From a virus, in IMG/VR virus record IMGVR_UViG_3300021594_000641, positions 96,001 through 160,000 of that record: DNA of 64,000 nucleotides. The stretch is one strand, 5' to 3'. Shown here piece by piece: positions 1 through 60,109 of this stretch (position 1 is its first letter; every line of letters begins with the position of its first letter). Under the pieces are notes generated by a model. The model had not been told where the DNA came from. It worked only from the letters and a program-made list of their open reading frames with translations, and ran no database searches. A program made the translations under genes and the position numbers.

Positions 1-120
1 AAGACCGGCGTCTCCTGGAGCTCCTAGAGTAGATTTAAGTTTTACTGCTTCATTTTTATCTGCAGATAATTTAACTGCAGCTTTTTTAACTTGTTCAATA
101 GCCTTGTAGTTGAAAGCCAT
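1..120 (-). CDS. 5' part of hypothetical protein (runs off left edge); N-terminus paralogous to 244..714
   Basis: Manual translation from ATG at 120: MAFNYKAIEQVKKAAVKLSADKNEAVKLKSTLGAPGDAGL, open to window edge; matches MPFNYKAISMVKEALAK of the upstream ORF. Confidence 0.7.
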   Translation of the reverse strand, partial: MAFNYKAIEQVKKAAVKLSADKNEAVKLKSTLGAPGDAGL

Positions 121-243
121 CTTAGTATTCCTAACTTTAAAACTGCGTTGGCTACGGAAGTAAAACGTATCTAGAAGTATAAACTGCTTTATAGCTTACA
201 GCAATCAGCCTTTTACTAACAATTTTTACCTTGGCTTTTACCA

Positions 244-714
244 TTAATACCCGTAGTTAACTTTACCTGTGCCAAGACTTGGCAAACCTACGCCTTTTAG
301 AAAAGCTTGCCTATGCAAATTGTTGAATGGAGTTTTTGACAATTCTGTCGGTAACGTTTGATAAGTAGGGTATGGAACAATTTGACGATAGTTTTCTGAT
401 CCAGGCATGGAGTATTGATACGGGTTTACGGGTTTATTTAGCGCCTCTGTACTGGCTGCGTGTCGCGTTTCTGGAAGATTTCTAGAGCCTTCCAACATTT
501 TTTGTTTTCTTTCTGTTTCAGAAAGCCACTTTATGCCAGGCTCAGGCGCTTTTTGATAAGTAGGAAGACCTATAGCGTCTCCTCCGTAACCTGGAGGAAT
601 AATTTGCGGTTTAGTCGCACTGCTGGCAGTAGGTTTTAAAGTAGCCGCAGATTCAGCAGCCCTTTTTGCCAGAGCTTCTTTAACCATTGAAATAGCTTTG
701 TAATTAAAAGGCAT
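244..714 (-). CDS. Hypothetical protein, Pro/Ala-rich, putative virion-internal protein
   Basis: 156-aa ORF with gccATG start directly downstream of the RNAP; shared N-terminal motif with next gene. Confidence 0.7.
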   Translation of the reverse strand: MPFNYKAISMVKEALAKRAAESAATLKPTASSATKPQIIPPGYGGDAIGLPTYQKAPEPGIKWLSETERKQKMLEGSRNLPETRHAASTEALNKPVNPYQYSMPGSENYRQIVPYPTYQTLPTELSKTPFNNLHRQAFLKGVGLPSLGTGKVNYGY

Positions 715-719
715 GGCTT

Positions 720-763
720 CACCCTAGTTTACACCCTAGTTTTCACCCTAGTTTTCACCCTAG
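720..763 (-). repeat. 12-bp tandem repeat (about 3.7 copies) of AAACTAGGGTG(A/T) spanning RNAP stop to next start
   Basis: Plus strand caccctagttta caccctagtttt caccctagtttt caccctag; minus strand reads AGC TAG GGT GAA AAC TAG GGT GAA AAC TAG GGT GTA AAC TAG GGT GAA GCC ATG. Confidence 0.95.
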
Positions 764-3700
764 CTGTTTAGAATTACCACTTTCTGATCAGGCCCAATTT
801 CTCCTGACTTATAAGCCCTGATTGCGTCGGCTTTTGTGGCAAAATACCGTTCTGGTTTATTAGACACGAAGGCCGTTGCCTGATAAAGACCGCCTTGATA
901 CTCGTTCTTTGGCAGCTGGTGAACTTTAAACGTTTTAGTTGATAGCAAATTCTTGCTAGGCAACATCTTTTCAAGAGCGTCTTTGACAGCTCCATCAGAC
1001 ACAGGAACGTGGTAGTTCATGGTGTCGCCATCAAAGTCGGCACCAAATCCCGTAACCACAGCTGGGCATAACTGCATTGTTTCGTTGTCTACAAGTATTG
1101 GCTTGAAGGCCATAACGCCATACCTGTGAAGAACTGGAGCTCTGTTGATAATCACAGGCCTGTCGTTCATCTCTTGCTGCATAGCTGTCAGAGCTAACTT
1201 GTCTTTGTTCTGCACAAGTTCTGCTGCCCTAATCGGAGAAACTCCTTGTCTGGCCAGTCTTCTTACAATAAATGGTTTATATATTTCCCAAGCTTTGTTG
1301 ATAGGAATGCCTACTTGATCTAAATCCAGATTGGCGTTTGGAGAGATAACGCCTCTGCCAACAACGTCTACTGTCGTGCTTAGCAACTTGCGCTGCATAA
1401 CAGAGAACTTAGGATTATCGCCAAACACGTATTTGAGAACGCCTTTGACTCCGCGCTCTTGGTTCTTGGGACTTATTGGATCACCAAGTCCCGTGACTGC
1501 TTTGAATGACCTATATAGAGCTAAGCGCTCATCTCCAACTTCGTTGGATATTCTTCTGGTTTCTTTCAAAGCCTGGTTAGCTTCAAAAGCTTCCTTATAC
1601 AGGTAATTAGGATCAGCCACCAAAGGTCTGTCGCCAGATCCCATAACAGCCACAGGGCGGAATATTGGTGGAAGGACTGGAATCTTGTCCATCATCCAAT
1701 CTTTTGGATGCATCTTCAGCCTTTGGGTGTGTTTCAGAATCGCCCAGCGCTTTAGAGCTGCATCTTTCGATGACTTCTTCGAGTTTCTCCATTCTGTTTC
1801 TGCTCTCTTTGTTGCCTCGTTGATGTCAATTCTTTCCAAAGACTTCTTTATAGCCTCTGGACCGGACATTTCATTGAACGTCTCTTTTCCAGAAAGTATG
1901 GCGTTGAACCTGTTTTGAGTCAGGCCGAGTATTCTGCGAATAGGCTCTTCCATGACAGGATTGGGCAAAGGCTCAGCTAACTTTATGTAGCTCCATCTAT
2001 TTCCTCCATGTCCTCCTGTTGTTGATTCGTCAAACAATCCTCCCTTTATGGGCTTCAAGCCTTCCTTCCAGTCCACAGTTTCAGGAGAAGTTATTTCCCT
2101 TCCTGCAGCTAATTGGTCTATATCCTTGTTGGTCAAGGCCATGATCTGAATTCTTGGCCCAGTTCTTATTGGGTTTATGCCTGCAGACCTGAGTTGTTCA
2201 AAGAACTTATGGTATACGAGAGGAATTCTTGGCTCAGGAGGAGTTCTACCGGACATGAATGCTGCCCAGTAGTCTTGATTTTTTTGTCCTCTAATAGCTC
2301 CGGCATCGGTAAGAACATCCAAAGCTCCATGGGAAAGAAGGGCGTTGTTGTCAGCAAGGCTTACGCGCTTGCTTCCCATTGGACCGCCTTTAGCTGGAGA
2401 TTCCTCAGAGGTGTAAGAACCCAAACCACGACCAGAGCCTTTGCTCTCAGCCATGTGGTGCAACTTCATGAAGAAGCGATTTCCTGTGAATACGTCCCTT
2501 ATTTTTGTGCTGTCTATTGGATCCAGTATGTCTTCCCTGTCAGACATGTTGTGCTTGGATAGTTCTTTTTTGGCGAACTCTATCATGTCTTCTATGTCAG
2601 AAAAGTCTTTTACGGCGTATCTCTTACCGTGCTTTTCAGCTATTTTTCCCAGAACCGCTTCTACCATCTGACCAGGATTTGTTCTGGAAATAATGCCCAA
2701 GGGGTTTACCAGAACCTCAAAAGGTCTTCCGTCGCTATCTACAGGCATGTGGTTGTCTGGAACTATCTCAGAAATTACTCCCTTGTCTCCATACCTTCCA
2801 GAAAGCTTGTCGCCAACCTGCATTTGGGAGTAGCTCTTTACTGTTACGACTACGCCTTTCCTGGTTTTCTCTACGTCTGTAACCACTCCTTTGTCGTGAT
2901 GATCCCAAGTTACAGTGCTGTCTGAAAAAGTAGGAGCCTTGCCTCTGGTTATTTGATTGTGCGCCAGCTCTTTCTGCTTAACCTGAAGAATAAGAGGAGT
3001 ATCGGCATTTACTATTGAGCCCTTCTTGATTACTCCGTCCTCATCCATGTTGTCCAGGATGGCTTTGTCGTAAGTGCCTGGGAACATGGATATAAAAGTT
3101 TTCTTTCCGTATTTGGCGTTATCCTCAAACTCCACGTCGTTTTGATACATGTGTTCTGAGGAAAGACGCTTGGCAGCTGCCTCAGATATAACTATGGCGT
3201 CTTCAAAGTTCTGACCTTTATAGGGAATGTAGGCAGTACGCATGTTCAGACCCAAAGCCGTAGCGCCTTTGGCGTCTGTAAAGTTAGACCTGGCAATAAG
3301 AGTATTCTTCTTTACCATGTCTCCAGGCATAACTACAGGCGTGTTATGAAGATAAGTCTTTCTGTTGTAAGGAAGGTTGTCATGTATTTCTTTAACATGC
3401 ACCTTGCCATCAGATCCCTTTATGTGAATCTCTTCTGGAGTAACCTTAACAACTTGTCCTTCTACGTCGGAATGTACCGCGCCCATGTACTTGCCGTATC
3501 TTTCCTCATACGACTCGTCATCAGGACCTGGAACACCTGACTGAACAAACGGGGATTCGGCGTTTGCAATAGGCAAAGCCTGTGTAAGCATTCTCGCGCC
3601 CATCATCACGCGCTGGCCTTTGATGGTGGATTTGAGAGGAATCATGTTTACCAGAGGATTGAACGAGTCTTCCATGTGTGGAAGAACGTATTCAACCTGG

Positions 3701-5196
3701 TTCTTTGGAACATATTTGATTTTGCCGCTAACCAAAGCAGCCACTACGTTTGAATTCTTGTTTTCAAGCTCTTTGGGGAAAGCTATTACAGAGTCAGCAA
3801 TATCCTGAGGAGTTTTCCATACAGGTTTATTTCCATTCTTTACGTCAAGAAACTTGGCATAGACCTTTCCATCCTTACCTTTCATGGAAGATTGAGCCAA
3901 ACGGCTATCAACACCTACCTTTAGAGATTCAGGAGTGAGTAGAGGATCGACATAACCAAAGTGAGAAGGCTGAACCGACCTGGCTTCGTCTGGAACAGCG
4001 TCCAGAGAAGGAATACCGCCTTCGCCAAGACGACTCATTCTGGTCAGCTGGCCAAGAATCTCAGCGTTGTTCACTTCTTCAGAAGGCTGTCCAAGTCCAG
4101 AACTTGTAATTGCAGCATTCAAATGCTTGCCAAGGAAGTTAGTTCCCAGAGGACTGAGATTATTTTTGAATGTGGCTTTCCACAGTAAAGGCCTCATGAC
4201 CTTGTAGGCTGAGCGCATCTTCTCAGAAAACAGATCCTCAGGACCCATGATCATCTGATAGGCCATGGCATCGCGGTCGTCTGGATCTGCTTCTCTCTTG
4301 TTTATGGCCACGATCTTCTTTGTGGCATCAATAATGGCATCTACTGACAAGTTTTTATACGGTTTGCCTAGTGTTCTTGACGTTACAACACCATCTAAAT
4401 GCATGTTCTCAAAGAAGTTACGAAGCTTTTGATACTTGCTTTCCTTGTCTCCTTCCTGATCAGCCTTCCTAAGAGTTCTTTGGATTAGCTTTTCCAGAAC
4501 CTGCGGGTCGTTTTGCCTGGCGTTTACTTCGTACAGCTCGTTTCCCCAAGAGTCTCTAAGCTGTTTGTCTGTTGCACCCATGGCTTTGAGCAGGGGAAAC
4601 AGAGGCATGGACGCTTGGCCCATGGAAACTTTGAATACGCCGCGAGCTGGATCTAGAGAATATCTGTGAGAAACACCTTTACCAGGAAGTACGTTAACGT
4701 GAGATTCTATTTCACCGTTCTGCTTTTCTCTCGTATATATCCCTGGGCGCAATCTGGCTTGGTTGGCAAGTGTGTATTCAACACCATTAAGTACGAAAGT
4801 GCCGCCATTTGTCATCTTGGGAATACGAGCCATGGTTATGGCTTTTTCATCAACGATGTTTCCCTGCGTGTCCTGAAGCTGCCATATGCCCTGAAGCCTT
4901 CTTTCAAGGCTTTCTTTTCTAAGAATGGCTTTCTTTCGTTCTTTTATGGAAGGAACTGGGCTATCTAGATAGCTAGCGCTGACTAGCTTTAGCTTATACC
5001 TATTGTTTTCAAATACAGGAATTTCTTTCGTAGCGTTTAAAACACCGTCGTATATGGAGTTACGAGTCTTATCTATGTCAGAAAAAGACCGCATCTCTTC
5101 CTGAGGTTTATTTAAAATAGGCGCGGCCAGATTGCCAAGAACTCCTGCAGGCTTGTTTGGTCCCGCAGGAGTTCCACCGTCTAGGACAGAAGCCAT
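760..5196 (-). CDS. DNA-directed RNA polymerase, beta fused to N-terminal (catalytic) half of beta-prime
   Basis: Beta motifs GTFVLNGVEY..Q.R.PG, RSVQPSHFGYVDPLLTPE, GDKLSGRYGDKG, NPLGIISRTNPGQ, FMKLHHM; beta-prime motifs GGLFD, IPVLPPIFRP, VDVVGRGVI, NRAPVLH, GADFDGD. Confidence 0.95.
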   Translation of the reverse strand: MASVLDGGTPAGPNKPAGVLGNLAAPILNKPQEEMRSFSDIDKTRNSIYDGVLNATKEIPVFENNRYKLKLVSASYLDSPVPSIKERKKAILRKESLERRLQGIWQLQDTQGNIVDEKAITMARIPKMTNGGTFVLNGVEYTLANQARLRPGIYTREKQNGEIESHVNVLPGKGVSHRYSLDPARGVFKVSMGQASMPLFPLLKAMGATDKQLRDSWGNELYEVNARQNDPQVLEKLIQRTLRKADQEGDKESKYQKLRNFFENMHLDGVVTSRTLGKPYKNLSVDAIIDATKKIVAINKREADPDDRDAMAYQMIMGPEDLFSEKMRSAYKVMRPLLWKATFKNNLSPLGTNFLGKHLNAAITSSGLGQPSEEVNNAEILGQLTRMSRLGEGGIPSLDAVPDEARSVQPSHFGYVDPLLTPESLKVGVDSRLAQSSMKGKDGKVYAKFLDVKNGNKPVWKTPQDIADSVIAFPKELENKNSNVVAALVSGKIKYVPKNQVEYVLPHMEDSFNPLVNMIPLKSTIKGQRVMMGARMLTQALPIANAESPFVQSGVPGPDDESYEERYGKYMGAVHSDVEGQVVKVTPEEIHIKGSDGKVHVKEIHDNLPYNRKTYLHNTPVVMPGDMVKKNTLIARSNFTDAKGATALGLNMRTAYIPYKGQNFEDAIVISEAAAKRLSSEHMYQNDVEFEDNAKYGKKTFISMFPGTYDKAILDNMDEDGVIKKGSIVNADTPLILQVKQKELAHNQITRGKAPTFSDSTVTWDHHDKGVVTDVEKTRKGVVVTVKSYSQMQVGDKLSGRYGDKGVISEIVPDNHMPVDSDGRPFEVLVNPLGIISRTNPGQMVEAVLGKIAEKHGKRYAVKDFSDIEDMIEFAKKELSKHNMSDREDILDPIDSTKIRDVFTGNRFFMKLHHMAESKGSGRGLGSYTSEESPAKGGPMGSKRVSLADNNALLSHGALDVLTDAGAIRGQKNQDYWAAFMSGRTPPEPRIPLVYHKFFEQLRSAGINPIRTGPRIQIMALTNKDIDQLAAGREITSPETVDWKEGLKPIKGGLFDESTTGGHGGNRWSYIKLAEPLPNPVMEEPIRRILGLTQNRFNAILSGKETFNEMSGPEAIKKSLERIDINEATKRAETEWRNSKKSSKDAALKRWAILKHTQRLKMHPKDWMMDKIPVLPPIFRPVAVMGSGDRPLVADPNYLYKEAFEANQALKETRRISNEVGDERLALYRSFKAVTGLGDPISPKNQERGVKGVLKYVFGDNPKFSVMQRKLLSTTVDVVGRGVISPNANLDLDQVGIPINKAWEIYKPFIVRRLARQGVSPIRAAELVQNKDKLALTAMQQEMNDRPVIINRAPVLHRYGVMAFKPILVDNETMQLCPAVVTGFGADFDGDTMNYHVPVSDGAVKDALEKMLPSKNLLSTKTFKVHQLPKNEYQGGLYQATAFVSNKPERYFATKADAIRAYKSGEIGPDQKVVILNS

Positions 5197-5199
5197 GGC

Positions 5200-6216
5200 T
5201 TATTCCTCGTTATCTTCTTCCTGGTCTTCAGACTCTTCTACTTTTTTCTTCTTTTCATGAATTGGAAGAGCCATAAGCTTTGGAGGAGAAGCAGCCTGCC
5301 TTGCAGCAGCTCTTTCTCTGGCTATTTCGCCAAGGAGCTTGGAAGGATCTCTCTTGCTGAAGTATTCGTATCCAAGGGTTGTTCCAAGAACAGGCAAACC
5401 AGCCAAAGCTGTAAGCCCCAAACCTCCAATTATGTTACCGGCGGATTCTAAAGAAGCTCTTGCCGCATTAGGGTCAATGCCTGCTTGCTCATAAATAGGG
5501 TCTGTAATCATTCTGCTAGTAGGTATAAGATCACCGCTAGCCTCAACTTTATAAGGAGGATATTTGCCAGATATCTTAAGAATGTACGCTAGCTTTTCCA
5601 GGTTGTACCGCAGCTCTTTGGCTACAGCCTTATCCCCAGAACCGGCTTTTTGCATCTTTAGTTTATCTTCGTCATAAGACTCCATTAGAGCCTTGTTGAA
5701 CTCTTCCGCCTCATCAGAAACATCTTCTTGAATCTGCTTGGCTCGTCTTGAGTTGAGAATGGCGTTGGTCAGCTTGTAGCCGCCATACATAGTTCCCAAG
5801 CCGCCAAGAATACTGAGAGGCCAGAAAATTGGCGCTTCTGCAGGGCTTTGAGCTTCGTGGCCGTGAAGCCAGCTAGCTTGTTCATATGGTTTTCTGTAAG
5901 CGCCTAAGGCCTTGGCTATAAGGTTGCTTTGCGTTGGCTTTTCAGAAGATGCCTTTATAGCTTCTTCTACAATCTGCTCTTTTACGTCCTCTTCAGGATC
6001 TTCCGTATAGTTTGGATGGGGAAGAGGAAGTATTGATGGGGTTCTAGACCTGAACTTGGCTTTATTCTTTTTGAAGACGCCAGGAATTTCCTGAGCCGCT
6101 CTGGCTCCAGCTCCAAGCATGGCCGAACCTAGAAGAACTTGGCTCAGCAGTCCGTAAGTTTTATTTACCGCTCTGTTTGAATCATCAATTTCATCTGCTT
6201 TCTTTTCTTGAGACAT
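5200..6216 (-). CDS. Hypothetical protein with Gly-rich hydrophobic segments (putative virion/ejection protein)
   Basis: Start moved to ATG 6216 (MSQEKKADE), just after upstream stop; three GxxxG-rich hydrophobic stretches. Confidence 0.65.
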   Translation of the reverse strand: MSQEKKADEIDDSNRAVNKTYGLLSQVLLGSAMLGAGARAAQEIPGVFKKNKAKFRSRTPSILPLPHPNYTEDPEEDVKEQIVEEAIKASSEKPTQSNLIAKALGAYRKPYEQASWLHGHEAQSPAEAPIFWPLSILGGLGTMYGGYKLTNAILNSRRAKQIQEDVSDEAEEFNKALMESYDEDKLKMQKAGSGDKAVAKELRYNLEKLAYILKISGKYPPYKVEASGDLIPTSRMITDPIYEQAGIDPNAARASLESAGNIIGGLGLTALAGLPVLGTTLGYEYFSKRDPSKLLGEIARERAAARQAASPPKLMALPIHEKKKKVEESEDQEEDNEE

Positions 6217-6218
6217 GG

Positions 6219-6563
6219 TCACAGTCTCCTCTGTACGTTCTTTGGAATGATGCCGACTACTTCGCCCCATTCCAGATGGATTCTTATCTCTTTACCGTCT
6301 TCAGATATGAGCTTAGTCCTATCTATTAGACGGAATAACCCGTTGACTATCTTATCCAGTATCTGTGTATATTCTTCTAAATCTGAAGAATTACCAAGAT
6401 CAAATACCTTCACATTCGCATTAACGCCGTGAGGTATATTGTCGTACTCTTCCTGAGTTAGATTTGGCGTGGCGTTTCCCATTAAGGGAAAGCCTTGCGA
6501 AGTTACAGCTCTTGAATCAGCGCGATACTTAGCCCCAACACCAAACTGATTCAGTATCTTCAT
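6219..6563 (-). CDS. Hypothetical protein
   Basis: 114-aa ORF, ATGA-coupled to upstream gene. Confidence 0.7.
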   Translation of the reverse strand: MKILNQFGVGAKYRADSRAVTSQGFPLMGNATPNLTQEEYDNIPHGVNANVKVFDLGNSSDLEEYTQILDKIVNGLFRLIDRTKLISEDGKEIRIHLEWGEVVGIIPKNVQRRL

Positions 6564-7024
6564 ATACCGCCGCTTTCTTTAAGCCTTCTAAGTTTGTTCT
6601 TCATCCTGATCTTAGCCTTCTGAATAGCTAAGTCGTTTATTACTTCCTCGGCTTTTGCTTCTTGCTCGGCCAAAGGATCTGAGCGCATGTCAGCCAAGGC
6701 TTTACCAGCCAGAATACCAGAACCTGTGGCTGCTATGCCTGTAGCTGCCAGTATCTTTGGAGCGTTATTGAGTATCCAGTCAGAGTATCCAGTAGCAGCC
6801 AAAGCCGCACCTGCGTTCTGAACTGGAGTAGAAGCTCCAAGAGTGTTTAAAGTTATGCCTGTGCCAAGACCTTTAGCTAGCCTTGACCCAAGAGTTTCGT
6901 TGTCAGCTTGTTTCTCAAGCTTATGAATGGCAGTCTTAACTCGCTCGTTCATCTGAGCAAGAGTTAGACCTTCGTCCAGACATCTACTTATAAAAGCTAA
7001 CTTGAAACTGGTCAGAGGATCCAT
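6560..7024 (-). CDS. Hypothetical protein with Gly/Ala-rich hydrophobic segments and C-terminal coiled coil
   Basis: 154-aa ORF in tight operon; EKQA motif, GLGTGITL and ATGIAATGSGILAG. Confidence 0.7.
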   Translation of the reverse strand: MDPLTSFKLAFISRCLDEGLTLAQMNERVKTAIHKLEKQADNETLGSRLAKGLGTGITLNTLGASTPVQNAGAALAATGYSDWILNNAPKILAATGIAATGSGILAGKALADMRSDPLAEQEAKAEEVINDLAIQKAKIRMKNKLRRLKESGGI

Positions 7025-7027
7025 GAA

Positions 7028-7390
7028 TCACCTCTTTGGAATATTCAGGCCTGACAGTGAGACATAAACTCTCTTTCGTTCTTCAGCTTGTTGTCTGCGA
7101 ATGTCAGGGTCCATTGGATTTCCCTGATCTTCAGCAGCCTTTATAACTTCCATAAGATTTTTAGCTGCTTGCAATAGTTCGCGGCGTTCGTCAACGTAGT
7201 GACCACCACGATCTCTCATGTGCTCAGCTTCTCTTGCAAATGAAACTGCTCTATATCTCATAGTCATTGGGGCTTCATATTTGATATCACCTGCTTTCTC
7301 ATCAATAATCGCAACCATTCCGTCCTGAGCCCAATACCTCAGGTCTCTGAAAGAAAACACTTTGCTGTTTTTTACAATGTCTTCAGCCAT
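7028..7390 (-). CDS. Hypothetical protein
   Basis: 120-aa ORF, SD AAGGG, tight operon spacing. Confidence 0.7.
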   Translation of the reverse strand: MAEDIVKNSKVFSFRDLRYWAQDGMVAIIDEKAGDIKYEAPMTMRYRAVSFAREAEHMRDRGGHYVDERRELLQAAKNLMEVIKAAEDQGNPMDPDIRRQQAEERKRVYVSLSGLNIPKR

Positions 7391-7407
7391 GATAGCCCTT
7401 TCTATAC

Positions 7408-8397
7408 TTAATCTAGCTTAAGCACTCTGTCTAAAACCCTGAAGTCGTTTACCGACTTACACGTCTCATCCCTTCTATCAGTATCGTCTGAACTCTGGCT
7501 AGACAACATCAGTGTATCACGCCCTCGAACCACAAGCACTCTCAAACTAAGTATCGTATCTCCGTTCTCAGAGTGAACGTCATAAGCTGTTACAGGTAAT
7601 TTTCTATCATTTAAAAAAATATCATTTGAGCCATTCTTTCCTAAACTTATTACCCATCTGTTTGATTCAGGATTTGACGTGTCAGCTCTTGTTAGTTGAA
7701 CCAGAGAACTTTCAGGCAATGGCTCTTGAGGATAATAGATCTCATCCTCATACATCTCCGAGTATCCATACCATGGGTTGTACATGGTTGTTCCTGGAAT
7801 CTCTCTATCAGGAACATCTACTTGTTCTATTCTTTCTCTTTCTTCCATTACTCCCGACATATCCAATAACTGATTTATCAAAGCATTCCTTTCTCTTAGA
7901 ACTTCTCCTCTTTCCAATACTAACCTTGAATACAGTCCTTGGTTTCTTAGAGGAGCAGCTATTCTTGCCATTAGGGCTAATTCTTGGTCTATCTTATTCT
8001 GTAGCAAGTCTAACCATGCTTTTCTGTTTCTGTTGTTTAAATACCTTACTGAAGAGCGTCTATTTGATATCGAGCCTTCTGGTCTTTCCATATAGTCTTT
8101 TATTGCTTCTTGAGATAGTTCTATCATTGCGGCTATATATTGTCTGACTGCTGTGCCTAGAGTTGGATTTATTTCATCTAACTGAGCATATGTTGCAATA
8201 TAACTTTCTCTAAGAAGCTTTAATTGTTCTTCCATGAATTCTTGAACTGTATATACGCTTTCTTCTAAATCGAATGATCTTGCTGAAATAGAAAAGCCGA
8301 ATGGAAGTATGTACGAATGCTGCCTTATATCTTCTGAGGCGTTTTCGTTCACTTCTCTTTCCATTCTTATTGCTTCTTCGTGAGAAGATTCATACAT
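7408..8397 (-). CDS. Hypothetical acidic helical protein
   Basis: 329-aa ORF, strong SD GGAGGAAGG before ATG. Confidence 0.75.
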   Translation of the reverse strand: MYESSHEEAIRMEREVNENASEDIRQHSYILPFGFSISARSFDLEESVYTVQEFMEEQLKLLRESYIATYAQLDEINPTLGTAVRQYIAAMIELSQEAIKDYMERPEGSISNRRSSVRYLNNRNRKAWLDLLQNKIDQELALMARIAAPLRNQGLYSRLVLERGEVLRERNALINQLLDMSGVMEERERIEQVDVPDREIPGTTMYNPWYGYSEMYEDEIYYPQEPLPESSLVQLTRADTSNPESNRWVISLGKNGSNDIFLNDRKLPVTAYDVHSENGDTILSLRVLVVRGRDTLMLSSQSSDDTDRRDETCKSVNDFRVLDRVLKLD

Positions 8398-8416
8398 GGA
8401 TCCTTCCTCCTATACC

Positions 8417-9499
8417 TTATTGACCAAACAATCCTGGTATTACTGCCTTTAGTGCTCCAGCGAACATTCCTGTATTCTGTAATGTTCTTTGGGCTGTTGG
8501 TGTCAGACCAGCTAATGCTCCAAGCACCTTTCCGCCTATATATGCCTGGGATAATCCAGCGCCCATTCCAAGTCCTACTCTTGAAATGTCGAATGGAGAT
8601 ATGATTCCCATGTTTCCTTTTGATTGGTTTGCTGCTTCTGTTAGTCCGACTGTTGCTGTTCTTAGTGGTATTGAGGCAAAAGGATCCATCATTACTGATC
8701 TGTTGAATGCGTCGACAGGAATGGTTGGAAGGTTTTCTATGCCTGATTGGGATAGAGATTGCTTTTGCATATAGTCATCTAGCATTTGTTCTGATTCTTT
8801 GTTTGGGTGTATATCTTTTATTCCTTCAAATGCTCTATTGATTGCTTCTGAGATTTTTTCTTGAGGTTTTTCTTCTGGCTGAGAACCCCAGAACACATTT
8901 GGCTTTACCCAGGCATTCCACTTACTCTTATCCTTGTCGTCCCAATTCCTCATTCCTACAACTCCTAGATATGCTGGAATTGCTGCTCCGCCCAAAGCTC
9001 CAATGACTCCAAGAGTCTTGTTGAGCCTGTCTCTTTTTACAAACCTTTCTGGAAATAGTCTTTCTAGCAGACTTCCTGTCAAATATCCCGCGCCGCCTCC
9101 TAAAGCTCCGCTAGTTAACATTGAGAATAAAGGGCTTGTTCCAAACTCTCCGAAGTTTTGATTGAAGGAGTTTGGAGCCAAGTTCATTAGCTTGGGAATC
9201 GTTGAAAGAGTATCTTTTGCTTTCAATGGCTCTGCTGCTCTCTTTACGAATATCCATCTCTTGTTTTCAGGCAGCTTTGTTTCCCTATGACCTATTTCAA
9301 ATCCTTTCTTCTGCATGTTCTCTACTGTTGATAGGCAATCTGTAGTTAGTAATCCTGGATTGTCTGCATCGAACCAGACAACTGAATTGTCTTCAAGGGC
9401 GCTAGAAACCTTTTCGTGAAATGGCTTAAGAGACTTAATTGCTTCCTTGACCATTTCTGGAAGGAGCAAGTATTCCATCTTTAGAAGAGTGTCGGTCAT
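8417..9499 (-). CDS. Hypothetical protein with multiple glycine-zipper hydrophobic segments
   Basis: 360-aa ORF; GALGGGAGYLTGSLL, GVIGALGGAAIPAYLG, GLGMGAGLSQAYIGGKVLGALAG. Confidence 0.75.
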   Translation of the reverse strand: MTDTLLKMEYLLLPEMVKEAIKSLKPFHEKVSSALEDNSVVWFDADNPGLLTTDCLSTVENMQKKGFEIGHRETKLPENKRWIFVKRAAEPLKAKDTLSTIPKLMNLAPNSFNQNFGEFGTSPLFSMLTSGALGGGAGYLTGSLLERLFPERFVKRDRLNKTLGVIGALGGAAIPAYLGVVGMRNWDDKDKSKWNAWVKPNVFWGSQPEEKPQEKISEAINRAFEGIKDIHPNKESEQMLDDYMQKQSLSQSGIENLPTIPVDAFNRSVMMDPFASIPLRTATVGLTEAANQSKGNMGIISPFDISRVGLGMGAGLSQAYIGGKVLGALAGLTPTAQRTLQNTGMFAGALKAVIPGLFGQ

Positions 9500-9500
9500 C

Positions 9501-10085
9501 TTAGTTTCTCGAATAGAAGGCTGAAGGCATGTGTGATTGAAGCATGTGTATTCTGAAGTTTGTGGGTTTGTGCGTTAATCCCACAATACCGTTCTTTGGT
9601 TCGTCGCTTATGTCGAATTCGTCTGGAGCTGCTGATACAAGTGCTCTAAGTATTATATTCTTCCTTATATATTGTTTCTTGTCTGATAGCTCTTTGGCTG
9701 TTATCAGGCTTTTTAGTGTTTCGCTCTTTGCTGCATACTTTAGGGCTGAAGGCTCTTCTTCTAGTCCAGCCAACACGGACAGTTTGTTTGCAAGATAGTT
9801 TGAGCCTAAGGCTCCAAGTATTGCTCCCAAGGCTTTTCCTGGAGTTACAGAACTATCTGTTGATCCTGACAAAGCTCCTCCTACGCCATAACCTCCTATT
9901 GCTCCTGTTCCTGTTGCCAGTCCTTTCATGCCTCCTCGAATAAGGTCTAGTAGCCTTGTGTATTTGTTCTTGCCTTTTCCGCCTGTTGGTTCAGCTAGGG
10001 CTGATCCGGCTATTGTGGTAAGTCCAAGCAAGCCCGCAGCTGGACTAACTGGAAAAATATTTGCGGGTTTTGACTCTTTGCTCAT
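9501..10085 (-). CDS. Hypothetical protein, glycine-zipper N-half plus small globular C-domain
   Basis: 194-aa ORF; GLATGTGAIGGYGVGG, GAILGALG. Confidence 0.7.
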   Translation of the reverse strand: MSKESKPANIFPVSPAAGLLGLTTIAGSALAEPTGGKGKNKYTRLLDLIRGGMKGLATGTGAIGGYGVGGALSGSTDSSVTPGKALGAILGALGSNYLANKLSVLAGLEEEPSALKYAAKSETLKSLITAKELSDKKQYIRKNIILRALVSAAPDEFDISDEPKNGIVGLTHKPTNFRIHMLQSHMPSAFYSRN

Positions 10086-10227: not shown

Positions 10228-13200
10228 ATGAGTCCTGCAAACAAGTCTAAGGACATTGTCAAGAAAATTGAGTCTAAATTCAAGGTCCAAAAGAGAGGTG
10301 GTGGATCAGAAGACTTCAAGGTCAGCAAGGTTCATAGCGCAATCAAGCGAGCTTTGGTGAATGGAGGTGGTTGGAATCCTGACGAAGCTGAGAAGGAAGC
10401 TGAGAATATCACTAACGCCGTTATCAGTCTTATCGTCAAGACTTTGACTAGTCCTGTTAATGTTGAAAGCATTCAGAATTTGGTAATCCAGCAGCTATGG
10501 GCTTTCAATCGCGACACTGAAGCTACTCATTACACCGTTTACAAGGAAGAAAGGAAGAAGTCGCGTGAGCTTGTTCCTGTGGATGAGAAGATCAAGGCGA
10601 TGATTGCTGATGACGCCAAGAACTTTGATGAGCCTATTCAGTACTTTCAGCTTATTACCAAGTTTGCACGATGGAATGAAAAAGCCAATAGGCGTGAAAC
10701 TTGGCAAGAAGTGTGTGATCGTGTGATTGGCTGGTTTCAAAAGCAGCCAAGACTTAAGAATGTTGAAGAAAGCCAATGGAATGAGTTGTTCAGCTATCTA
10801 TATAACTTGAAAGCAAGCCCTGCTATGCGGGTTGTTCAGATGGCTGGAGCTCCTTTGGACCGATGCAACGTTGGTGTTTTCAACTGCTCTTACTTGCCTA
10901 TCGTTGATTTGTTCTCCTTTGTCGAGCTTCTCTACATTCTTATGCAAGGCACAGGTGCTGGCTTCTCCGTTGAGTCTGCCAACATCGAGCATCTTCCTCG
11001 CATCAAGAGGCAAAAGCTTGCAGAGAAGACCAAGCACATTATTGAAGACTCCACAGAAGGTTGGTGCGATGCCTTACATATGGGGTTGAAGGCTTGGTTT
11101 GAGGGAGATGACATTGATTTTGACTTCAGCAGGATTAGACCTGCTGGGGCAAAGCTCAAGACCAAGGGCGGTAGAAGCTGCGGGCCTGAGCCTCTAAAGG
11201 ATCTTCTGAAGTTTGCCCGCGATTTGATTCTCAAGCGCCAAGGCAAATACCTTACTGAGCTTGATTGCCACGACCTTGCTTGCATGGTTGGCAAGATTGT
11301 TCAGGTTGGAGGCGTAAGGCGTGCAGCTTTGATCTCTCTTTCTGACCTTAGCAGTTCAGAAATGCGTGAAGCCAAGAGTGGAGCATGGTGGCAAAACCAC
11401 GTTCACCGTTCCATGGCCAACAACTCTGCCGTGTATGACAGCAAACCAAGCGATGTTGCCTTCATGGACGAGTGGCTCAGCCTGGCAAAGTCTGGTTCTG
11501 GAGAGCGAGGTATCTTCAATCGCGATGGTGTTTTGAAGATGTTGCCCAAACGACGCAAGAAAGCCAAGTTTGGAACCAACCCTTGCTTTCATCCAGACAC
11601 AAGAATCTTCTGTAGCGAAGGTCTGATGCGCATTGTTGACCTTTACGAGCTAGGCATGGAGGTGAACGTAACTGTTGACAACCGTGAAAAGCCTGGAGAG
11701 ATCGTTGTCGGTGTGGATTTGAAGGCAGCTAGCCAAGTTGAGCTGACTCAAACCCAGGCCAAGGTCTTCAGGCTGACAACGGAGCACGGTCATGAGATCG
11801 TTTGCACCGAAAATCATGAGTTTCCAACCGCCAAGGGGCGTAAGCAACTTAAAGATTTGAAGGCTGGAGACACTCTGTGCCTTCAATCTGACGAGGGTTT
11901 CTTCGGTCCTTACGGCGATTACAAGACAGGAGTGCTTCTTGGAGTGGTTGCCGGTGCTGGAAAGGTAGAAACCAACGACAGAAGGCTTAAAACCTTGTCC
12001 ATAGAGGACTTCCTGTCTGACATGGACAACATGGACATGGTTGATGACTGCCTTACAGCCGTCGGAAAGCGCGGGAACAAGCACAAGACCGCAAATGTGC
12101 GCACCCAGCCCAAGATGTCTGGCATGGTTTTCACCAACAGAGTGGCGGAGATGGCTTATTTGAGCGATACGTCCGAGATGAAGACGTCAATTCCTGAAAC
12201 TGTAATGCGCGGAAAGCGTTCTATGGTCGCAGGTTACTTGTCGGCTGTCATGTCCAGCGCTTCCAGGGTCATTTCCACCCGTGAAAATGACGCTCAGAGC
12301 TTCATGATGCAGATTGACAGCCCGTCAAAGAGCTTCCTTCTTGGTTTGCAGATGCTTTTTGCCAACTTTGGCGTTGTTGCCAGGGTTGCAAAGAGGTCTG
12401 GCAAGACAAATAACATAGGAATGCTTCGTGACGTCAATCCAAGCAATGACGATAAGGTCAGTTTGATCCTAAACAGGACAAATTGCGCCATCGCCTATGA
12501 GAGGATTGGCGTTTCTGGTCTTCCTGGCTCCATCCTTAGTGATTTTCTTGGCAACACCAAGACCTGGATGGCTGACAGAGACGAGAAATACGTCACGAAG
12601 GTCAAGGAAATCCGTCCTGACGGCTTCTCTGACGTATATTGCCTCAACCAACCAGAGACTCACAACGTTATAGCCAACGGTGTGGTCGCTGGAAACTGCG
12701 CTGAGATCATTTTGAGGCCACACGAGTTCTGCAATCTCACAATTGTTATTGCAAGACCCAACGATACGGCTGAAACTCTTAAAGAGAAGATCCGCATTGC
12801 CACTATTTTCGGCACCATGCAAGCCAGCTGCACAAACTTCAAGTACATTCGCAATGAATGGCACAAGAACTGTGAAGAAGAGGCGTTGCTTGGCGTCGAT
12901 ATCACTGGACAGATGGACTGTCCTCTTCTTAGACCTGACGCTGAAGGCCGTGAAAAGCTTCTTGAGGAGCTTAAGGGCGTGGTCGCCAAGACTAACGAGG
13001 AGTGGGCTAAGAAAATCGGCATCAACAGGGCTGCAGCCGACACTTGCGTCAAGCCTAGTGGCGATAGCAGCCAGTTCTACAACTGTGGTTCAGGCATACA
13101 CGCCTGGTTTGGTAAGTTCTTCGTCAGAAGGGTTCGCGAACGTCGCGATAGCCCTGTGGCGAGAATGCTAATGGACCAGGGAGTGCCTTGGATGGTAGCT

Positions 13201-13611
13201 CCTGAAGACCCATCCTTGGTTTGTTTTGAGTTCCCACGTAAAGCGCCGGAAGGAGCGTTGACACGCCATGATCAAACCGCGATCGACCAACTGGAGAATT
13301 GGCTTGTATGGAAGAAGCATTTTGCGGAGCACTCAGTGTCAGCCACTATATATGTGGAAGACGGAGAGTGGCTCGAAGCTGGTCTCTGGGTCCACAAGCA
13401 TTTCGATGAAGTTAGCGGCGTCAGCTTTCTGCCTAGGGATAACGGTACTTACACTGGTACTCCCTATGAGGAGATCACCGAAGAAGAGTACAACAAGAGA
13501 CTGGCTGCGCTGCCTGAGATCGATTGGTCCAAGCTGGTACGGTATGAAACCGAAGACATGACTGTGGGTTCTCAAACCTACGCATGTACTGCCGGCGGTT
13601 GTGATTTCTGA
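10228..13611 (+). CDS. nrdJ: Class II (adenosylcobalamin-dependent, monomeric RTPR-like) ribonucleotide reductase with ATP-cone and intein
   Basis: N-terminal ATP-cone (VQKR.G..EDF), PAMR, FNCS, GGVRRAA, split NP/CAEI, VKPSG, HSVSAT, C-terminal CxxxxC (CTAGGCDF). Confidence 0.93.
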   Translation: MSPANKSKDIVKKIESKFKVQKRGGGSEDFKVSKVHSAIKRALVNGGGWNPDEAEKEAENITNAVISLIVKTLTSPVNVESIQNLVIQQLWAFNRDTEATHYTVYKEERKKSRELVPVDEKIKAMIADDAKNFDEPIQYFQLITKFARWNEKANRRETWQEVCDRVIGWFQKQPRLKNVEESQWNELFSYLYNLKASPAMRVVQMAGAPLDRCNVGVFNCSYLPIVDLFSFVELLYILMQGTGAGFSVESANIEHLPRIKRQKLAEKTKHIIEDSTEGWCDALHMGLKAWFEGDDIDFDFSRIRPAGAKLKTKGGRSCGPEPLKDLLKFARDLILKRQGKYLTELDCHDLACMVGKIVQVGGVRRAALISLSDLSSSEMREAKSGAWWQNHVHRSMANNSAVYDSKPSDVAFMDEWLSLAKSGSGERGIFNRDGVLKMLPKRRKKAKFGTNPCFHPDTRIFCSEGLMRIVDLYELGMEVNVTVDNREKPGEIVVGVDLKAASQVELTQTQAKVFRLTTEHGHEIVCTENHEFPTAKGRKQLKDLKAGDTLCLQSDEGFFGPYGDYKTGVLLGVVAGAGKVETNDRRLKTLSIEDFLSDMDNMDMVDDCLTAVGKRGNKHKTANVRTQPKMSGMVFTNRVAEMAYLSDTSEMKTSIPETVMRGKRSMVAGYLSAVMSSASRVISTRENDAQSFMMQIDSPSKSFLLGLQMLFANFGVVARVAKRSGKTNNIGMLRDVNPSNDDKVSLILNRTNCAIAYERIGVSGLPGSILSDFLGNTKTWMADRDEKYVTKVKEIRPDGFSDVYCLNQPETHNVIANGVVAGNCAEIILRPHEFCNLTIVIARPNDTAETLKEKIRIATIFGTMQASCTNFKYIRNEWHKNCEEEALLGVDITGQMDCPLLRPDAEGREKLLEELKGVVAKTNEEWAKKIGINRAAADTCVKPSGDSSQFYNCGSGIHAWFGKFFVRRVRERRDSPVARMLMDQGVPWMVAPEDPSLVCFEFPRKAPEGALTRHDQTAIDQLENWLVWKKHFAEHSVSATIYVEDGEWLEAGLWVHKHFDEVSGVSFLPRDNGTYTGTPYEEITEEEYNKRLAALPEIDWSKLVRYETEDMTVGSQTYACTAGGCDF
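11584..12696 (+). mobile_element. Intein (371 aa) inserted before the catalytic Cys of NPCxE; degenerate LAGLIDADG domain
   Basis: GTNP/CFHPDT at N-junction, block F/G VYCLNQPETHNVIANGVVAGN/CAEI at C-junction; removal restores NPCAEI. Confidence 0.92.
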
Positions 13612-53340: not shown

Positions 53341-53685
53341 TTAATCCTGCTTAGCTGATGTTTTTTTAGCATTTTCTCTCAGCTTGTTGAAATAATCAAT
53401 AGTATCATCGATATCTGAGTTAACTGTTTGCCAGTTCCATAGATGGCCAAAAACAAAATGGCAGTTCCTTCCAGGATATCGGCAAAGGGCAATTAGATTA
53501 CTTTCGTCAAGCTCCATGTCAGGATGTTCGTGAAAAGGGCGCTTGTGGTGTGCGACAAGCTTTTTGTCTATGCCGCACACCGCGCAAGTCTTACCGTAAA
53601 GAAACTTTTTGCTGAGAGCCTGCCACTTGCCACTTCTAGGTTTCCCTAGAGTAAAGAAAGAAACTAGCTTAGCTATAAACTGCAT
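53341..53685 (-). CDS. Small HNH endonuclease
   Basis: CAVC, AHHKRPFH, SNLIALC, CHFVFGH. Confidence 0.85.
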   Translation of the reverse strand: MQFIAKLVSFFTLGKPRSGKWQALSKKFLYGKTCAVCGIDKKLVAHHKRPFHEHPDMELDESNLIALCRYPGRNCHFVFGHLWNWQTVNSDIDDTIDYFNKLRENAKKTSAKQD

Positions 53686-53705
53686 AGCTACTTATTCCAA
53701 AACAA

Positions 53706-53990
53706 CTACCTGGTCAAAGACACAACCATCTCAAGGTCGTACTCTATTTCATACTCAGCAAATATCTTCATGTTTACCTTTATGGCCTTGTCTGACCTGC
53801 TAGGTAAAACATCGACGTAGAGGAAATCAGTTTCTTCAAGGGCAGCTCTTATGGCCTTCTTTACTAAATGAAAAGCTTTCTTGTAGCTAAGCTTGTTAAA
53901 TCCTGGAAGACACATGGCAGAGTTAACCCTGTCCATGATCACGTTAAAAGCCTTCTGGACTATCAACCCTTGATCTGAATTAACTTCCAT
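53706..53990 (-). CDS. Hypothetical protein
   Basis: Start moved to gccATG 53990 (MEVNSDQ). Confidence 0.6.
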   Translation of the reverse strand: MEVNSDQGLIVQKAFNVIMDRVNSAMCLPGFNKLSYKKAFHLVKKAIRAALEETDFLYVDVLPSRSDKAIKVNMKIFAEYEIEYDLEMVVSLTR

Positions 53991-53997
53991 GGCTGCT

Positions 53998-54387
53998 TTA
54001 CCCCGTGATTGGAATAGAAGTATCCACCTGTCTAAAAACAATAGGACCTCCTTGTCTAGAAGGAGCATTAATCTCAATAGAACTGGTCTTATCTTTATTA
54101 ACAGTACTCTGATCAACAAACACTACCCTCGTATAATCAGCGAACTGCAAAGCCAAGCCCTTGTCCAAATAAGTAAAAGTAGCTGGAGGGTTTTCCAAAA
54201 GCTTACTTTTTATAAAATGGACAAAAGCCTCTACCTCCTGTTTTAGCTTCTTACTGGTCGGAGTTTCTTTTTTATCTTCCTTTGACTCCAAGTACTTTTT
54301 CAGCATCAAGTCAAAAAAATCAGGGTCTTCGTTCGTATACACTTTGAAGCCGGCGTTCTTGTATGCTTCAAGTTCTTTCTTTTCCAC
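53998..54387 (-). CDS. Hypothetical protein
   Basis: 129 aa, GTG start after AAGGTGGG. Confidence 0.65.
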   Translation of the reverse strand: MEKKELEAYKNAGFKVYTNEDPDFFDLMLKKYLESKEDKKETPTSKKLKQEVEAFVHFIKSKLLENPPATFTYLDKGLALQFADYTRVVFVDQSTVNKDKTSSIEINAPSRQGGPIVFRQVDTSIPITG

Positions 54388-58195: not shown

Positions 58196-60109
58196 TTATT
58201 GCCCGCCAAATTGCTGCTGCATTACCATCTGACCTCCAGCTGTTCTAGCCTGCTGCCGGATGTTTTCAATAGTTTGTTTAACCGCAGCGTGCAAAGTTGG
58301 ATCTTGCCCTTTTAGCTTTGTCATTTCTGACTGTCTTTGAGATTCAGGGACGCTAAGAAGCTGAGAAGCTATAGCCTCGGCTTTAGCCTGCAGCTCTTGA
58401 GGTGTTATTTTTTGGCCTGGCTGCGTTGGCGTAGTCAGAGACATCTGCTGAGCCGCCGCGTCCATTGGCCCTGCTGGAGGTTGGTTTGGAGGAGTTGCTC
58501 CTCCAGGTGCCGGAGCTCCGCCGGTAGCTGGGGCTGCTCCGGGTGCGGGAGGAGCCTGCGGAGGTGGCGCGGCCATCTGATCCATGATAGAAGCAGTATC
58601 CATTTCTTCTTGAAGTTTGGCCTGCTCTTCTTGTTTGAACCTCTGCTCTTCCAGAGTTTGTCTTGTTTCTTCCTTGAAATCCAAACCCATACCGCGAAGA
58701 GCTGTGGTCTGGCTGATTTGCTGAGCTTGCATTAGCTGCAGCTTTGCCATCACGTTGTTCATGTCGTCGGTCAAAGTAGGAGGCAATAGAGAAGCTCTGG
58801 CCGGTTCCCAGCCCATAGAGTCAGCTGTCCGCATGGTAACGAACGTCAAGAAGTCGTTCATGTAATGAGTTAAATAAGTCCAGCTAGACTGGAAAAGTCT
58901 AATAGCTGGAAGCATAGCTTGAAGACTTAGGGTGCCGTTGTACAGCTCTGCCGGCATGCCGAACCCGTTCAACAAAGTAGTTATGCCTTGTTGCATTAAT
59001 TCTGTAGGTGCGAGCTTGCTGGCTTCTCCGCCTAGCATTTGATACTGGATAGGATGGCTCAAGAAATGCCAAGCTGCTGGGTCTCTGCGCCTTTTACGTA
59101 GCATACTTTGTACTTGAGACGAGAACCCGCCCAAGTCCATGTTCATCAAAGGGTCTCCAGCTTCTGGGTTACTGGAACTGCTGGGAGCTGGGGTTAAAAC
59201 CCTAAAAGGCACAACGTAGTCCAAGGCTATGGCTTCGTTATATCTGTGAAGAACTTGGCAGTACCAAGCCTGACGGAAATTAACCAGAGTTCTAGATATG
59301 CCCCATCCTCTAGACCTTACACCTGCAAGAGTTGGCTCGTGCATGTGGAAAACAACGTCTTTATCAAAAAGCAAGTAGCCGTTTGACTGTATGGCTTCGA
59401 CAACTTCCCAAGGAACTGTAGGCAGTACTTGCGGATCGCCTCTTCTAACTTGCAGTCTGTAGTCTTCAGGTATTCTCCAGATATATTCTCTGAAGTCATT
59501 TATCATGTCATACCGTATTTCCATTTCATACGGAGACCAGCGTTTGATTGTTATTTGTTTTTCGTCAGTAAGACGTCTGTCTACCCTGTGCCATTTACCG
59601 GAATATCCGCATTTAGGATTGGGGCATTTAGCGACAAAATCAGGCATCTGCCATTTAAAAGAAAAAACAGGGTTTTTCATCATCTCTGTTAGAGGGACGT
59701 CAAAATAACATTTTGGGCAACTTAGATAACGTCTAAAAGGCAAAACTAAACTTGTAAAGCTATTTCCGTAGCACAAAAAGTCTAAAGCAACAGAGTGTAG
59801 AACTTGCTTTACTTTTAAAACGTTATTTAAAAATATCTCGTACTTCTGTCTTTCGTCGTCTCCTAACTTTTCTCCATCTTGAGATTCAACTTTTATGTCA
59901 GTAATGAAATAAGAAACTATGCGCCTGGCTGCTTCTCTGATCATTGAGTTTACGTGAAAAGTAAACTCACAAAACCTAAGGGCATCGCGGATATTTTCCG
60001 GCATCACCGTGGACGCGTAGTCCATGAACGGATCTGGAAAAGGCTCTTCGCCCCTGTTCAGGTTCCAGTTCTTGCCTATAGAACTTTCAAAAAGGTCGCC
60101 GGATGGCAT
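58196..60109 (-). CDS. Probable portal protein with zinc-finger insertion and Pro/Ala-rich C-terminal tail
   Basis: Size and helical pattern; FCEF..., SYFITD, DFLCYGNSF, RYNEAIALDY, FGMPAEL; CPKC..CPNPKC insert; family recognised from memory only. Confidence 0.55.
   Translation of the reverse strand: MPSGDLFESSIGKNWNLNRGEEPFPDPFMDYASTVMPENIRDALRFCEFTFHVNSMIREAARRIVSYFITDIKVESQDGEKLGDDERQKYEIFLNNVLKVKQVLHSVALDFLCYGNSFTSLVLPFRRYLSCPKCYFDVPLTEMMKNPVFSFKWQMPDFVAKCPNPKCGYSGKWHRVDRRLTDEKQITIKRWSPYEMEIRYDMINDFREYIWRIPEDYRLQVRRGDPQVLPTVPWEVVEAIQSNGYLLFDKDVVFHMHEPTLAGVRSRGWGISRTLVNFRQAWYCQVLHRYNEAIALDYVVPFRVLTPAPSSSSNPEAGDPLMNMDLGGFSSQVQSMLRKRRRDPAAWHFLSHPIQYQMLGGEASKLAPTELMQQGITTLLNGFGMPAELYNGTLSLQAMLPAIRLFQSSWTYLTHYMNDFLTFVTMRTADSMGWEPARASLLPPTLTDDMNNVMAKLQLMQAQQISQTTALRGMGLDFKEETRQTLEEQRFKQEEQAKLQEEMDTASIMDQMAAPPPQAPPAPGAAPATGGAPAPGGATPPNQPPAGPMDAAAQQMSLTTPTQPGQKITPQELQAKAEAIASQLLSVPESQRQSEMTKLKGQDPTLHAAVKQTIENIRQQARTAGGQMVMQQQFGGQ

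What the first reader, a model, noticed from the sequence alone, without database searches (positions are those of the whole stretch)
760..5196. Single-chain phage RNAP: beta fused seamlessly to a beta-prime that stops just after the catalytic loop
Seen: the beta C-terminus (FEQLRSAGINPI) joins the beta-prime start (RIQIMALTNKDI...ITSPETVDW) via about 4 residues near 2150-2180; both double-psi barrels are in one chain; the protein ends about 85 aa after DFDGD. Known: bacterial RNAP needs the beta-prime bridge helix and trigger loop C-terminal of this point; Helicobacter/Wolbachia fusions keep full beta-prime; phiKZ-type enzymes are split, not fused. Inference: a distinct architecture with a separately encoded bridge-helix/trigger-loop subunit, possibly virion-packaged given its neighbours.
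Basis: partly seen in the sequence, partly recalled or inferred. Interest (0 to 1): 0.8.

Follow-up and report, generated by a model that had tools for sequence, protein, structure and literature searches.

The report
Fused-and-split two-chain phage RNA polymerase
A 190-kb uncultured lake phage builds its only RNA polymerase, a stripped-down bacterial-type enzyme, from two unusual proteins (all of beta joined to the catalytic front of beta-prime, and the back of beta-prime on its own); a large phage family including cultured Salmonella phage Arash shares this layout, and no paper I could search describes it.

Summary
Observation confirmed. ORF 760-5196(-) (1478 aa) is beta joined by RTGP to beta-prime-N and stops 87 aa after DFDGD. 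The predicted partner exists just outside the window: a 634-aa gene 3.9 kb downstream (genome 91003-92907) with bridge helix, trigger loop and the beta-prime C-terminus. The halves abut at E. coli beta-prime 551/572. So the enzyme is two-chain, not single-chain. The layout is fixed in hundreds of homologs (266/266 same C-end, 240/240 same start) and in cultured Salmonella phage Arash (gp206+gp216, both abundant in its particle proteome but annotated plainly as beta and beta-prime) and Vibrio phage D69. Distant relatives are true single-chain beta-beta-prime fusions (30 of 80 loci); two-chain forms are one clade, so fusion probably came first, then one split at a beta-turn. No alpha, omega or second polymerase found; a sigma and an SNF2 helicase homologous to Arash particle proteins are present; both zinc sites are lost here. 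Each ingredient has precedent (Helicobacter fusion, cyanobacterial/phiKZ split, yeast killer-plasmid enzyme); the combination was in no paper found. The scan reported it earlier on other genomes. Most likely a virion-packaged, host-independent polymerase; activity untested.

The parts
760..5196 (-). Large RNA polymerase chain, 1478 aa: whole beta + beta-prime N-part (to E. coli beta-prime ~551). Its partners lie outside the window (window = genome G000:C1 minus 96000): small chain, 634 aa, genome 91003-92907(-), with bridge helix 182-217 and trigger loop ~316-357; conserved 74-aa ORF 92907-93131(-); SNF2 helicase 86016-87506(-); sigma factor 53572-54441(-)
2167..5196 (-). beta portion, residues 1-1010; lacks the E. 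coli insertions around beta 228-420 and 932-1050; catalytic lysines K797, K805 (window 2779-2814)
2155..2166 (-). Four-residue junction RTGP, modelled as the turn of an ordered beta-hairpin
763..2154 (-). beta-prime N-portion, residues 1015-1478: clamp, second barrel; N-terminal zinc ribbon replaced by a 5-residue Cys-free loop
1024..1044 (-). Catalytic loop GADFDGD (residues 1385-1391); GADFDGD is the commonest form among close homologs, NADFDGD second
58196..60109 (-). Portal protein homologous to Arash gp204; one of the shared virion core genes that tie this genome to the Arash clade

Best explanation
The ORF is the large chain of a functional two-chain, bacterial-type DNA-dependent RNA polymerase. 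The large chain holds both catalytic barrels, flap and clamp; the 634-aa chain completes the core with funnel, bridge helix, trigger loop and beta-prime C-terminus, re-closing a cut beta-hairpin. The fusion probably makes the alpha/omega assembly scaffold unnecessary (inferred). The core is made late with the head proteins, packed into the head with the phage sigma and the SNF2 helicase, delivered with the DNA, and starts phage transcription without the host enzyme; as the only polymerase found, newly made enzyme probably also serves later genes (inferred). History: a streamlined ancestor fused beta to beta-prime, then one lineage split the chain once. Shown: anatomy, complementarity, conservation, family, tree position. 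Inferred: activity, assembly, packaging in this phage, sigma pairing.
For: Halves map to E. coli beta-prime up to 551 and from 572; in single-chain relatives they are joined by a 2-4 residue turn with nothing missing. Models: small chain has a 36-residue helix at 182-217 and matches bacterial beta-prime (TM ~0.7). Catalytic Lys/Asp invariant; trigger-loop Gln invariant, His in 90% or more. All top 120 and top 150 homologs fused; same ends; both genes lie within a few kb in nearly all long loci inspected. Arash gp206, gp216, gp217 and gp10 are in the particle proteome with 128, 40, 38 and 24 unique peptides and near-equal spectra per residue (2.0-2.4; capsid 4.3, portal 1.5) (PMC10585845); this genome shares terminase, portal, capsid, protease, tail-region, helicase and sigma homologs with Arash. 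No alpha, omega or second catalytic barrel in the genome, controls positive. Genes lie in the head module among proteins enriched in K-x-A sites (40 vs 17 expected, motif chosen after seeing it); 117 of 120 long small-chain homologs carry C-terminal cargo, with K-x-A in the first 90 residues in 49 of 122 vs 17 shuffled. Trees: family outside 14 bacteria and other phage enzymes (100 SH-aLRT); 42 two-chain rows form one clade (100), 29 single-chain rows outside it.
Against: No activity, expression or particle data for this phage. The Arash preparation also contained ribonucleotide reductase, primase and ligase, and its authors allow carry-over. The genome is about 91% complete, and profile searches can miss divergent alpha/omega substitutes. 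Neither core chain has a clear terminal K-x-A leader. Trees were quick/FastTree searches with long branches, no cyanobacteria, archaea or metagenomic mReC sequences; the root between single-chain and two-chain forms is unresolved, so the order rests on parsimony.
Confidence: 0.72

Rival explanations
1. Same two-chain enzyme, but non-virion: made after infection by the host polymerase and used for middle/late genes; its place among head genes and presence in Arash particles are incidental.
For: It is the only polymerase detected; Arash proteome includes obvious non-structural enzymes; YerA41 RNAP genes are expressed early (PMC7354516).
Against: gp206 had the most spectra of any Arash protein and the four components are near-equal per residue; gene sits in the head region in distant relatives; cargo fusions with K-x-A sites on the small chain.
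Confidence: 0.15
2. The two chains are not self-sufficient: they need host alpha/omega, or phage-specific small subunits such as the conserved 74-aa protein, to assemble.
For: All cellular enzymes need alpha (established knowledge); sequence is closer to bacterial enzymes (~27-30%) than phiKZ-type ones are; a 73-98-aa ORF precedes the small-chain gene in 8 distinct loci.
Against: AR9 core is active without alpha/omega (PMC7598289); the small ORF is absent at that position in one close lineage and in Arash and D69; relatives infect different hosts, which favours host independence.
Confidence: 0.1
3. A broken or mis-assembled rpoBC region, or a recently captured host fragment that is decaying.
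For: Loss of both zinc sites and non-canonical GADFDGD look like decay at first sight.
Against: Identical in contigs of four studies; hundreds of homologs with the same ends and invariant catalytic residues; long separate branch outside bacteria; protein detected in a cultured relative.
Confidence: 0.01

Closest known systems
Salmonella phage Arash gp206 (1525 aa) + gp216 (606 aa), OQ632216, PMC10585845; Vibrio phages D69/D148/D181
   Same: Same fusion, same break point, 30%/25% identity over 97-98% of each chain, same clade in trees, shared sigma, helicase, capsid, portal and terminase.
   Different: Paper and record call them beta and beta-prime and do not mention the fusion or split; no biochemistry. 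Arash/D69 keep the four Cys of the second zinc site and Arash has a second sigma; neither was found in this phage.
Yeast killer-plasmid (VLE) RNAP, pGKL2 ORF6/ORF7, PMC6211774
   Same: Two chains: beta fused to part of beta-prime plus a separate C-terminal piece; the fusion seemed essential in vivo. Best functional precedent.
   Different: Split lies between regions a15 and a16 (bridge helix in the large chain), clamp largely missing, poxvirus-like origin. Convergent.
phiKZ/AR9-type jumbo phage RNAPs, PMC7598289
   Same: beta-prime split after the catalytic barrel; no alpha/omega; virion-packaged form exists.
   Different: Four to five chains, beta also split, no fusion, two paralogous enzymes, no sigma recognisable by sequence, far more divergent.
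Cyanobacterial/plastid RpoC1 + RpoC2
   Same: beta-prime cut in the same neighbourhood.
   Different: Cut is about 20 residues further on (RpoC2 profile position 4 aligns to residue 24 of the small chain); beta separate; alpha, omega, zinc sites and large SI3 insertion present (established knowledge).
Helicobacter/Wolbachia RpoBC fusion (NF007172, NF011417)
   Same: Same kind of fusion between beta C-end and beta-prime N-end.
   Different: Full-length beta-prime (~2850 aa), alpha-dependent; scores 350 and 299 bits against cut-offs 5372 and 4632.
mReC phages (PMC7481178) and cultured phages with separate beta and beta-prime (YerA41/GN1, Carin-5, RHph_TM30, 1.031.O; IME392/RP13/Ab1 with split beta-prime)
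   Same: Deep-branching phage enzymes alignable to cellular ones.
   Different: beta not fused; N-terminal beta-prime region with cysteines kept; IME392 group cuts beta-prime near E. coli 515-535; separate branch.

Membership tests
Two-barrel multisubunit RNA polymerases, bacterial type | beta barrel with two lysines and beta-prime barrel with DxDGD | tested here: met
   K797, K805, D1387/1389/1391 invariant in 72 homologs; Foldseek top hits bacterial beta
Two-barrel multisubunit RNA polymerases, bacterial type | Bridge helix and trigger loop with His | tested here: met
   In the separate 634-aa chain
Canonical bacterial RNAP core | alpha2 and omega subunits; two beta-prime zinc sites | tested here: not met
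   No PF01193 or PF01192 in the 91%-complete genome, controls 14/14; 1 Cys in large chain, 0 in small
Two-barrel multisubunit RNA polymerases, bacterial type | DNA-dependent RNA synthesis | not testable with these tools
   Needs biochemistry
Arash-like fused RNAP clade | Same fusion and split, monophyly, shared virion core genes | tested here: met
mReC (PMC7481178) | beta and beta-prime matches of at least 800 aa, NADxDGD motif | tested here: not met
   Fused chain with GADFDGD; second chain 634 aa without the motif
mReC (PMC7481178) | Capsid PF07068 and terminase PF03237 | tested here: not met
   Capsid has no PF07068 hit (phrog_2522, NF042927 weak); terminase is PF05876 type, PF03237 E 0.14
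mReC (PMC7481178) | Placement inside the mReC RNAP clade | tested here: inconclusive
phiKZ/AR9-type RNAPs | Split beta, four to five chains, two paralogous enzymes | tested here: not met
   beta intact and fused; one catalytic barrel in the genome
Helicobacter/Wolbachia RpoBC | Complete beta-prime in the fused chain | tested here: not met
   Stop 87 aa after DFDGD; far below model cut-offs
Yeast VLE RNAP | Split between a15 and a16, clamp missing | tested here: not met
   Bridge helix is in the small chain; clamp helices modelled in the large chain
Virion-packaged RNAP | Present inside purified particles and injected | not testable with these tools
   Only indirect: Arash proteome, gene position, K-x-A context

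The most novel reading that the evidence does not exclude
A very large, undescribed phage family carries the simplest known sigma-dependent bacterial-type transcription machine: a one- or two-chain core with no alpha, omega or (in this subclade) zinc, packed with its own sigma and SNF2 motor, injected with the DNA, and using the small chain's C-terminus as a protease-released carrier for variable cargo enzymes.
Probability: 0.4. Interest if true: 0.8.

Novelty: new variant of a known kind. Interest (0 to 1): 0.62.

Why it matters
It offers a natural minimal version of the bacterial enzyme that is still alignable residue by residue to E. coli, so the roles of alpha, omega, the zinc ribbon and the second zinc site can be tested directly, with a cultured model (Arash) already in hand. 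It fills a gap between cellular enzymes and the very divergent phiKZ, crAss and YonO types, shows the post-barrel region of beta-prime as a break point used independently several times, and marks an abundant phage family that the length and motif filters of the mReC survey would probably have dropped and that annotation hides as 'beta' and 'beta-prime'. A one- or two-gene sigma-dependent polymerase could also be an orthogonal expression tool.

Tried and rejected
Fully fused forms among close homologs: none; long tails after DFDGD are inteins and long small chains are C-terminal cargo; single-chain forms appeared only at 30-36% identity. Complex prediction of the 74-aa ORF with parts of both chains: no answer, score 0.00, no evidence either way. 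ESM Atlas gave no usable identity for it. Sigma region 1.2, 2 and 4 profiles and the Arash second sigma gp196 found nothing in the genome; the one sigma was found by homology to gp10. No RNA holder listed. Sigma-70 promoter scan uninformative (8 found, 19 expected); k-mer search of intergenic DNA gave no clear phage promoter. 'Whole family is cysteine- and zinc-free' rejected: the second zinc motif is kept in 28/30 single-chain and 20/36 two-chain loci and in Arash/D69. 'Same split as cyanobacteria' rejected by about 20 residues. Bacterial outgroup came out Proteobacteria-heavy; the careful IQ-TREE search did not finish. Ten literature searches found no description of the layout; subscription papers are not covered. 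Host not determined.
Full report
Observation. The window is bases 96001-160000 of a 189,675-base virus record, about 91% complete, held mostly by lake and freshwater metagenome runs. ORF 760-5196(-) is one frame of 1478 aa. The beta C-terminal motif ends at residue 1010, the beta-prime start begins at 1015, four residues (RTGP, window 2155-2166) link them, and 87 residues follow DFDGD. Pfam finds Rpb2_3, Rpb2_6, Rpb1_1 and Rpb1_2 but no Rpb1_3-5. Contigs from four studies match the ORF without a change. An AlphaFold model of residues 290-1478 (pLDDT 86, pTM 0.76) shows an ordered hairpin at the junction and no helix over 13 residues after the catalytic loop; Foldseek's best hits are bacterial beta chains.

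The missing half. A search of the genome with RNA_pol_Rpb1_5 gave one locus, genome 91003-92907(-), 634 aa, 3.9 kb downstream on the same strand and just outside the window. It aligns to mycobacterial beta-prime 664-1185 including bridge helix and trigger loop; its model has a 36-residue helix at 182-217 and the trigger helices at 316-357 and matches bacterial beta-prime at TM about 0.7. In E. coli numbering the large chain ends near beta-prime 551 and the small chain starts near 572, either side of a variable loop. The enzyme is therefore two-chain.

What is stripped. The large E. coli beta insertions are absent, and the beta-prime zinc ribbon is replaced by a five- to seven-residue loop without cysteine in all 54 family members where it could be scored. 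The small chain here has no cysteine, so the second zinc site is gone too; Arash and D69 keep it, as do 28 of 30 single-chain and 20 of 36 two-chain loci. No alpha, omega or second catalytic barrel was found, with positive controls. One sigma-70-family gene lies at genome 53572-54441 (Sigma70_r3 over cut-off; 32% identical to Arash gp10 over 137 residues) and an SNF2 helicase at 86016-87506.

How common. The best 120 hits at 90% clustering and the best 150 at 50% clustering belong to the fused family; 266 of 266 that match the C-terminal segment end at the same point once inteins, including one class inserted right after DFDGD, are allowed for. All 240 small-chain homologs start at or just after the same TTxG motif with no N-terminal extension. 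Among cultured phages, Salmonella phage Arash and Vibrio phages D69, D148 and D181 match both chains over most of their length, and this genome shares terminase, portal (window 58196-60109), capsid, probable maturation protease, helicase and sigma homologs with Arash. The Arash paper (PMC10585845) lists gp206 as beta and gp216 as beta-prime; the word 'fused' does not occur.

Origin. Profile-seeded scans reached relatives down to 30-36% identity: of 80 loci, 45 are two-chain with the stop in the same place, 30 are single chains (about 2020-2200 aa when free of inteins), 4 are cut by contig ends and 1 is fragmented. In most single-chain forms the halves are joined by a two- to four-residue turn. 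A FastTree tree on large-chain columns puts all 42 two-chain rows, including this phage and Arash, in one clade (100) and the 29 single-chain rows outside it; with bacteria as outgroup the simplest history is one fusion then one split, although the root among family members is open. Mixture-model quick trees place the family outside 14 bacteria and apart from other cultured phage enzymes in the beta-prime tree, and as a long-branch sister to GN1(YerA41-like)/Carin-5 in the concatenated tree. I had the single-chain lead from earlier scan notes and tested it here.

Mechanism. Shown: all catalytic elements are present and conserved across the two chains. Inferred: the chains re-close the cut hairpin to form an alpha-free core, as AR9 does without alpha or omega (PMC7598289) and as the yeast plasmid enzyme does with a fusion that seemed essential (PMC6211774). 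For packaging: in Arash particles gp206 had the most spectra, and gp206, gp216, helicase and sigma gp10 gave 2.0-2.4 spectra per residue against 4.3 for capsid, while the second sigma gp196 is not in the part of the table read; the preparation also held metabolic enzymes, so this is suggestive only. Here the genes sit in the head module among proteins enriched for K-x-A (40 against 17 expected; motif chosen after inspection), and many small-chain homologs carry C-terminal cargo (Nudix, DUF5661, kinase, acylphosphatase) behind such a site (49 of 122 against 17), as expected if a head protease releases it. I put a packaged, host-independent enzyme at about 0.7.

Comparison. Fusion at this point is known from Helicobacter and Wolbachia, with full beta-prime. 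A split after the catalytic barrel is known from cyanobacteria and phiKZ/AR9 (PMC7598289); the cyanobacterial cut is about 20 residues further on, and IME392/RP13-like phages cut near 515-535 without fusing beta. GN1, Carin-5, RHph_TM30 and 1.031.O keep beta-prime whole. The yeast plasmid enzyme is the only described beta-plus-part-of-beta-prime two-chain enzyme I found, cut elsewhere and of poxvirus-like origin. The mReC survey required two matches of at least 800 aa and NADxDGD, which this phage fails, and its capsid and terminase families differ.

Verdict. Real, not an artefact, and not particular to this genome. A new variant of a known kind: a fused-then-split, apparently alpha-free bacterial-type polymerase of a large phage family, undescribed in the literature I could search, with a cultured member available for tests. 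The scan has noted the same layout on many other genomes. Interest 0.62.

Noticed in passing
window 718-765 (-): Four head-to-tail copies of a 12-base unit (AACTAGGGTGAA-like) fill the gap from the polymerase stop codon to the next start; not present at this place in six relatives; contigs of some runs break here, so copy number may vary.
   Followed up: partly
window 13621, 15665, 16157, 61057 (near-copy 14307; genome 71260): Motif ctgATAGCTAAAAA: six exact copies of the 11-mer genome-wide, five on the + strand (0-1 in shuffles), mostly just past the ends of minus-strand genes; reads as a T-run + AGCTAT on that strand, perhaps a phage terminator or terminator/promoter element.
   Followed up: partly
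L003:10908-11132 (genome 92907-93131): Conserved 73-98-aa beta-rich ORF of no known family directly before the small-chain gene in 8 distinct loci, often preceded by a conserved Pro/Gly-rich protein.
   Followed up: partly
P0330, P0451, P0473, P0483 and about 115 other homologs: The small chain often carries 300-1400 extra C-terminal residues with Nudix, DUF5661, AAA kinase, acylphosphatase or DUF4269 domains, nearly cysteine-free; some resemble window ORFs 18452-19732 and 9501-10085.
   Followed up: partly
window 1-10085 and genome 72948-96000: K-x-A motif enriched in head-module proteins, including a single site at capsid residue 26; candidate maturation-protease site (probable protease at genome 76780-78258, phrog_18299 weak).
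   Followed up: partly
P0121-P0269; L021, L192, L198: The polymerase is an intein hotspot (up to 3350 aa; one site directly after the catalytic DFDGD), and in some loci the gene is interrupted into two frames, probably by introns.
   Followed up: no
window 10228-13611 (+): Class II-like ribonucleotide reductase with an ATP-cone-like N-terminus and an apparent intein, on the opposite strand beside the structural region (read by eye).
   Followed up: no
window 18452-19732 (-): 2H-SAK phosphoesterase + DUF5661 protein, of the kind found in multi-domain phage effectors.
   Followed up: no
genome ~13800, ~29100, ~30500: A long repeat (core CCACGCACGCGTGGGTGAGA, about 8 copies) in three intergenic places; matches the small CRISPR-like arrays noted earlier by the scan.
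   Followed up: no
L125 (Vibrio phage 150E35-1): beta-prime gene is interrupted exactly inside the catalytic motif with an ORF between the halves, likely an unannotated intron; its relative 1.031.O is intact.
   Followed up: no
L156, L187, L161, L203: Family members with unusual catalytic loops (GADSDGD; GADNDGD and GADHDGD among protein hits); L161 and L203 show no standard motif, cause not examined.
   Followed up: no
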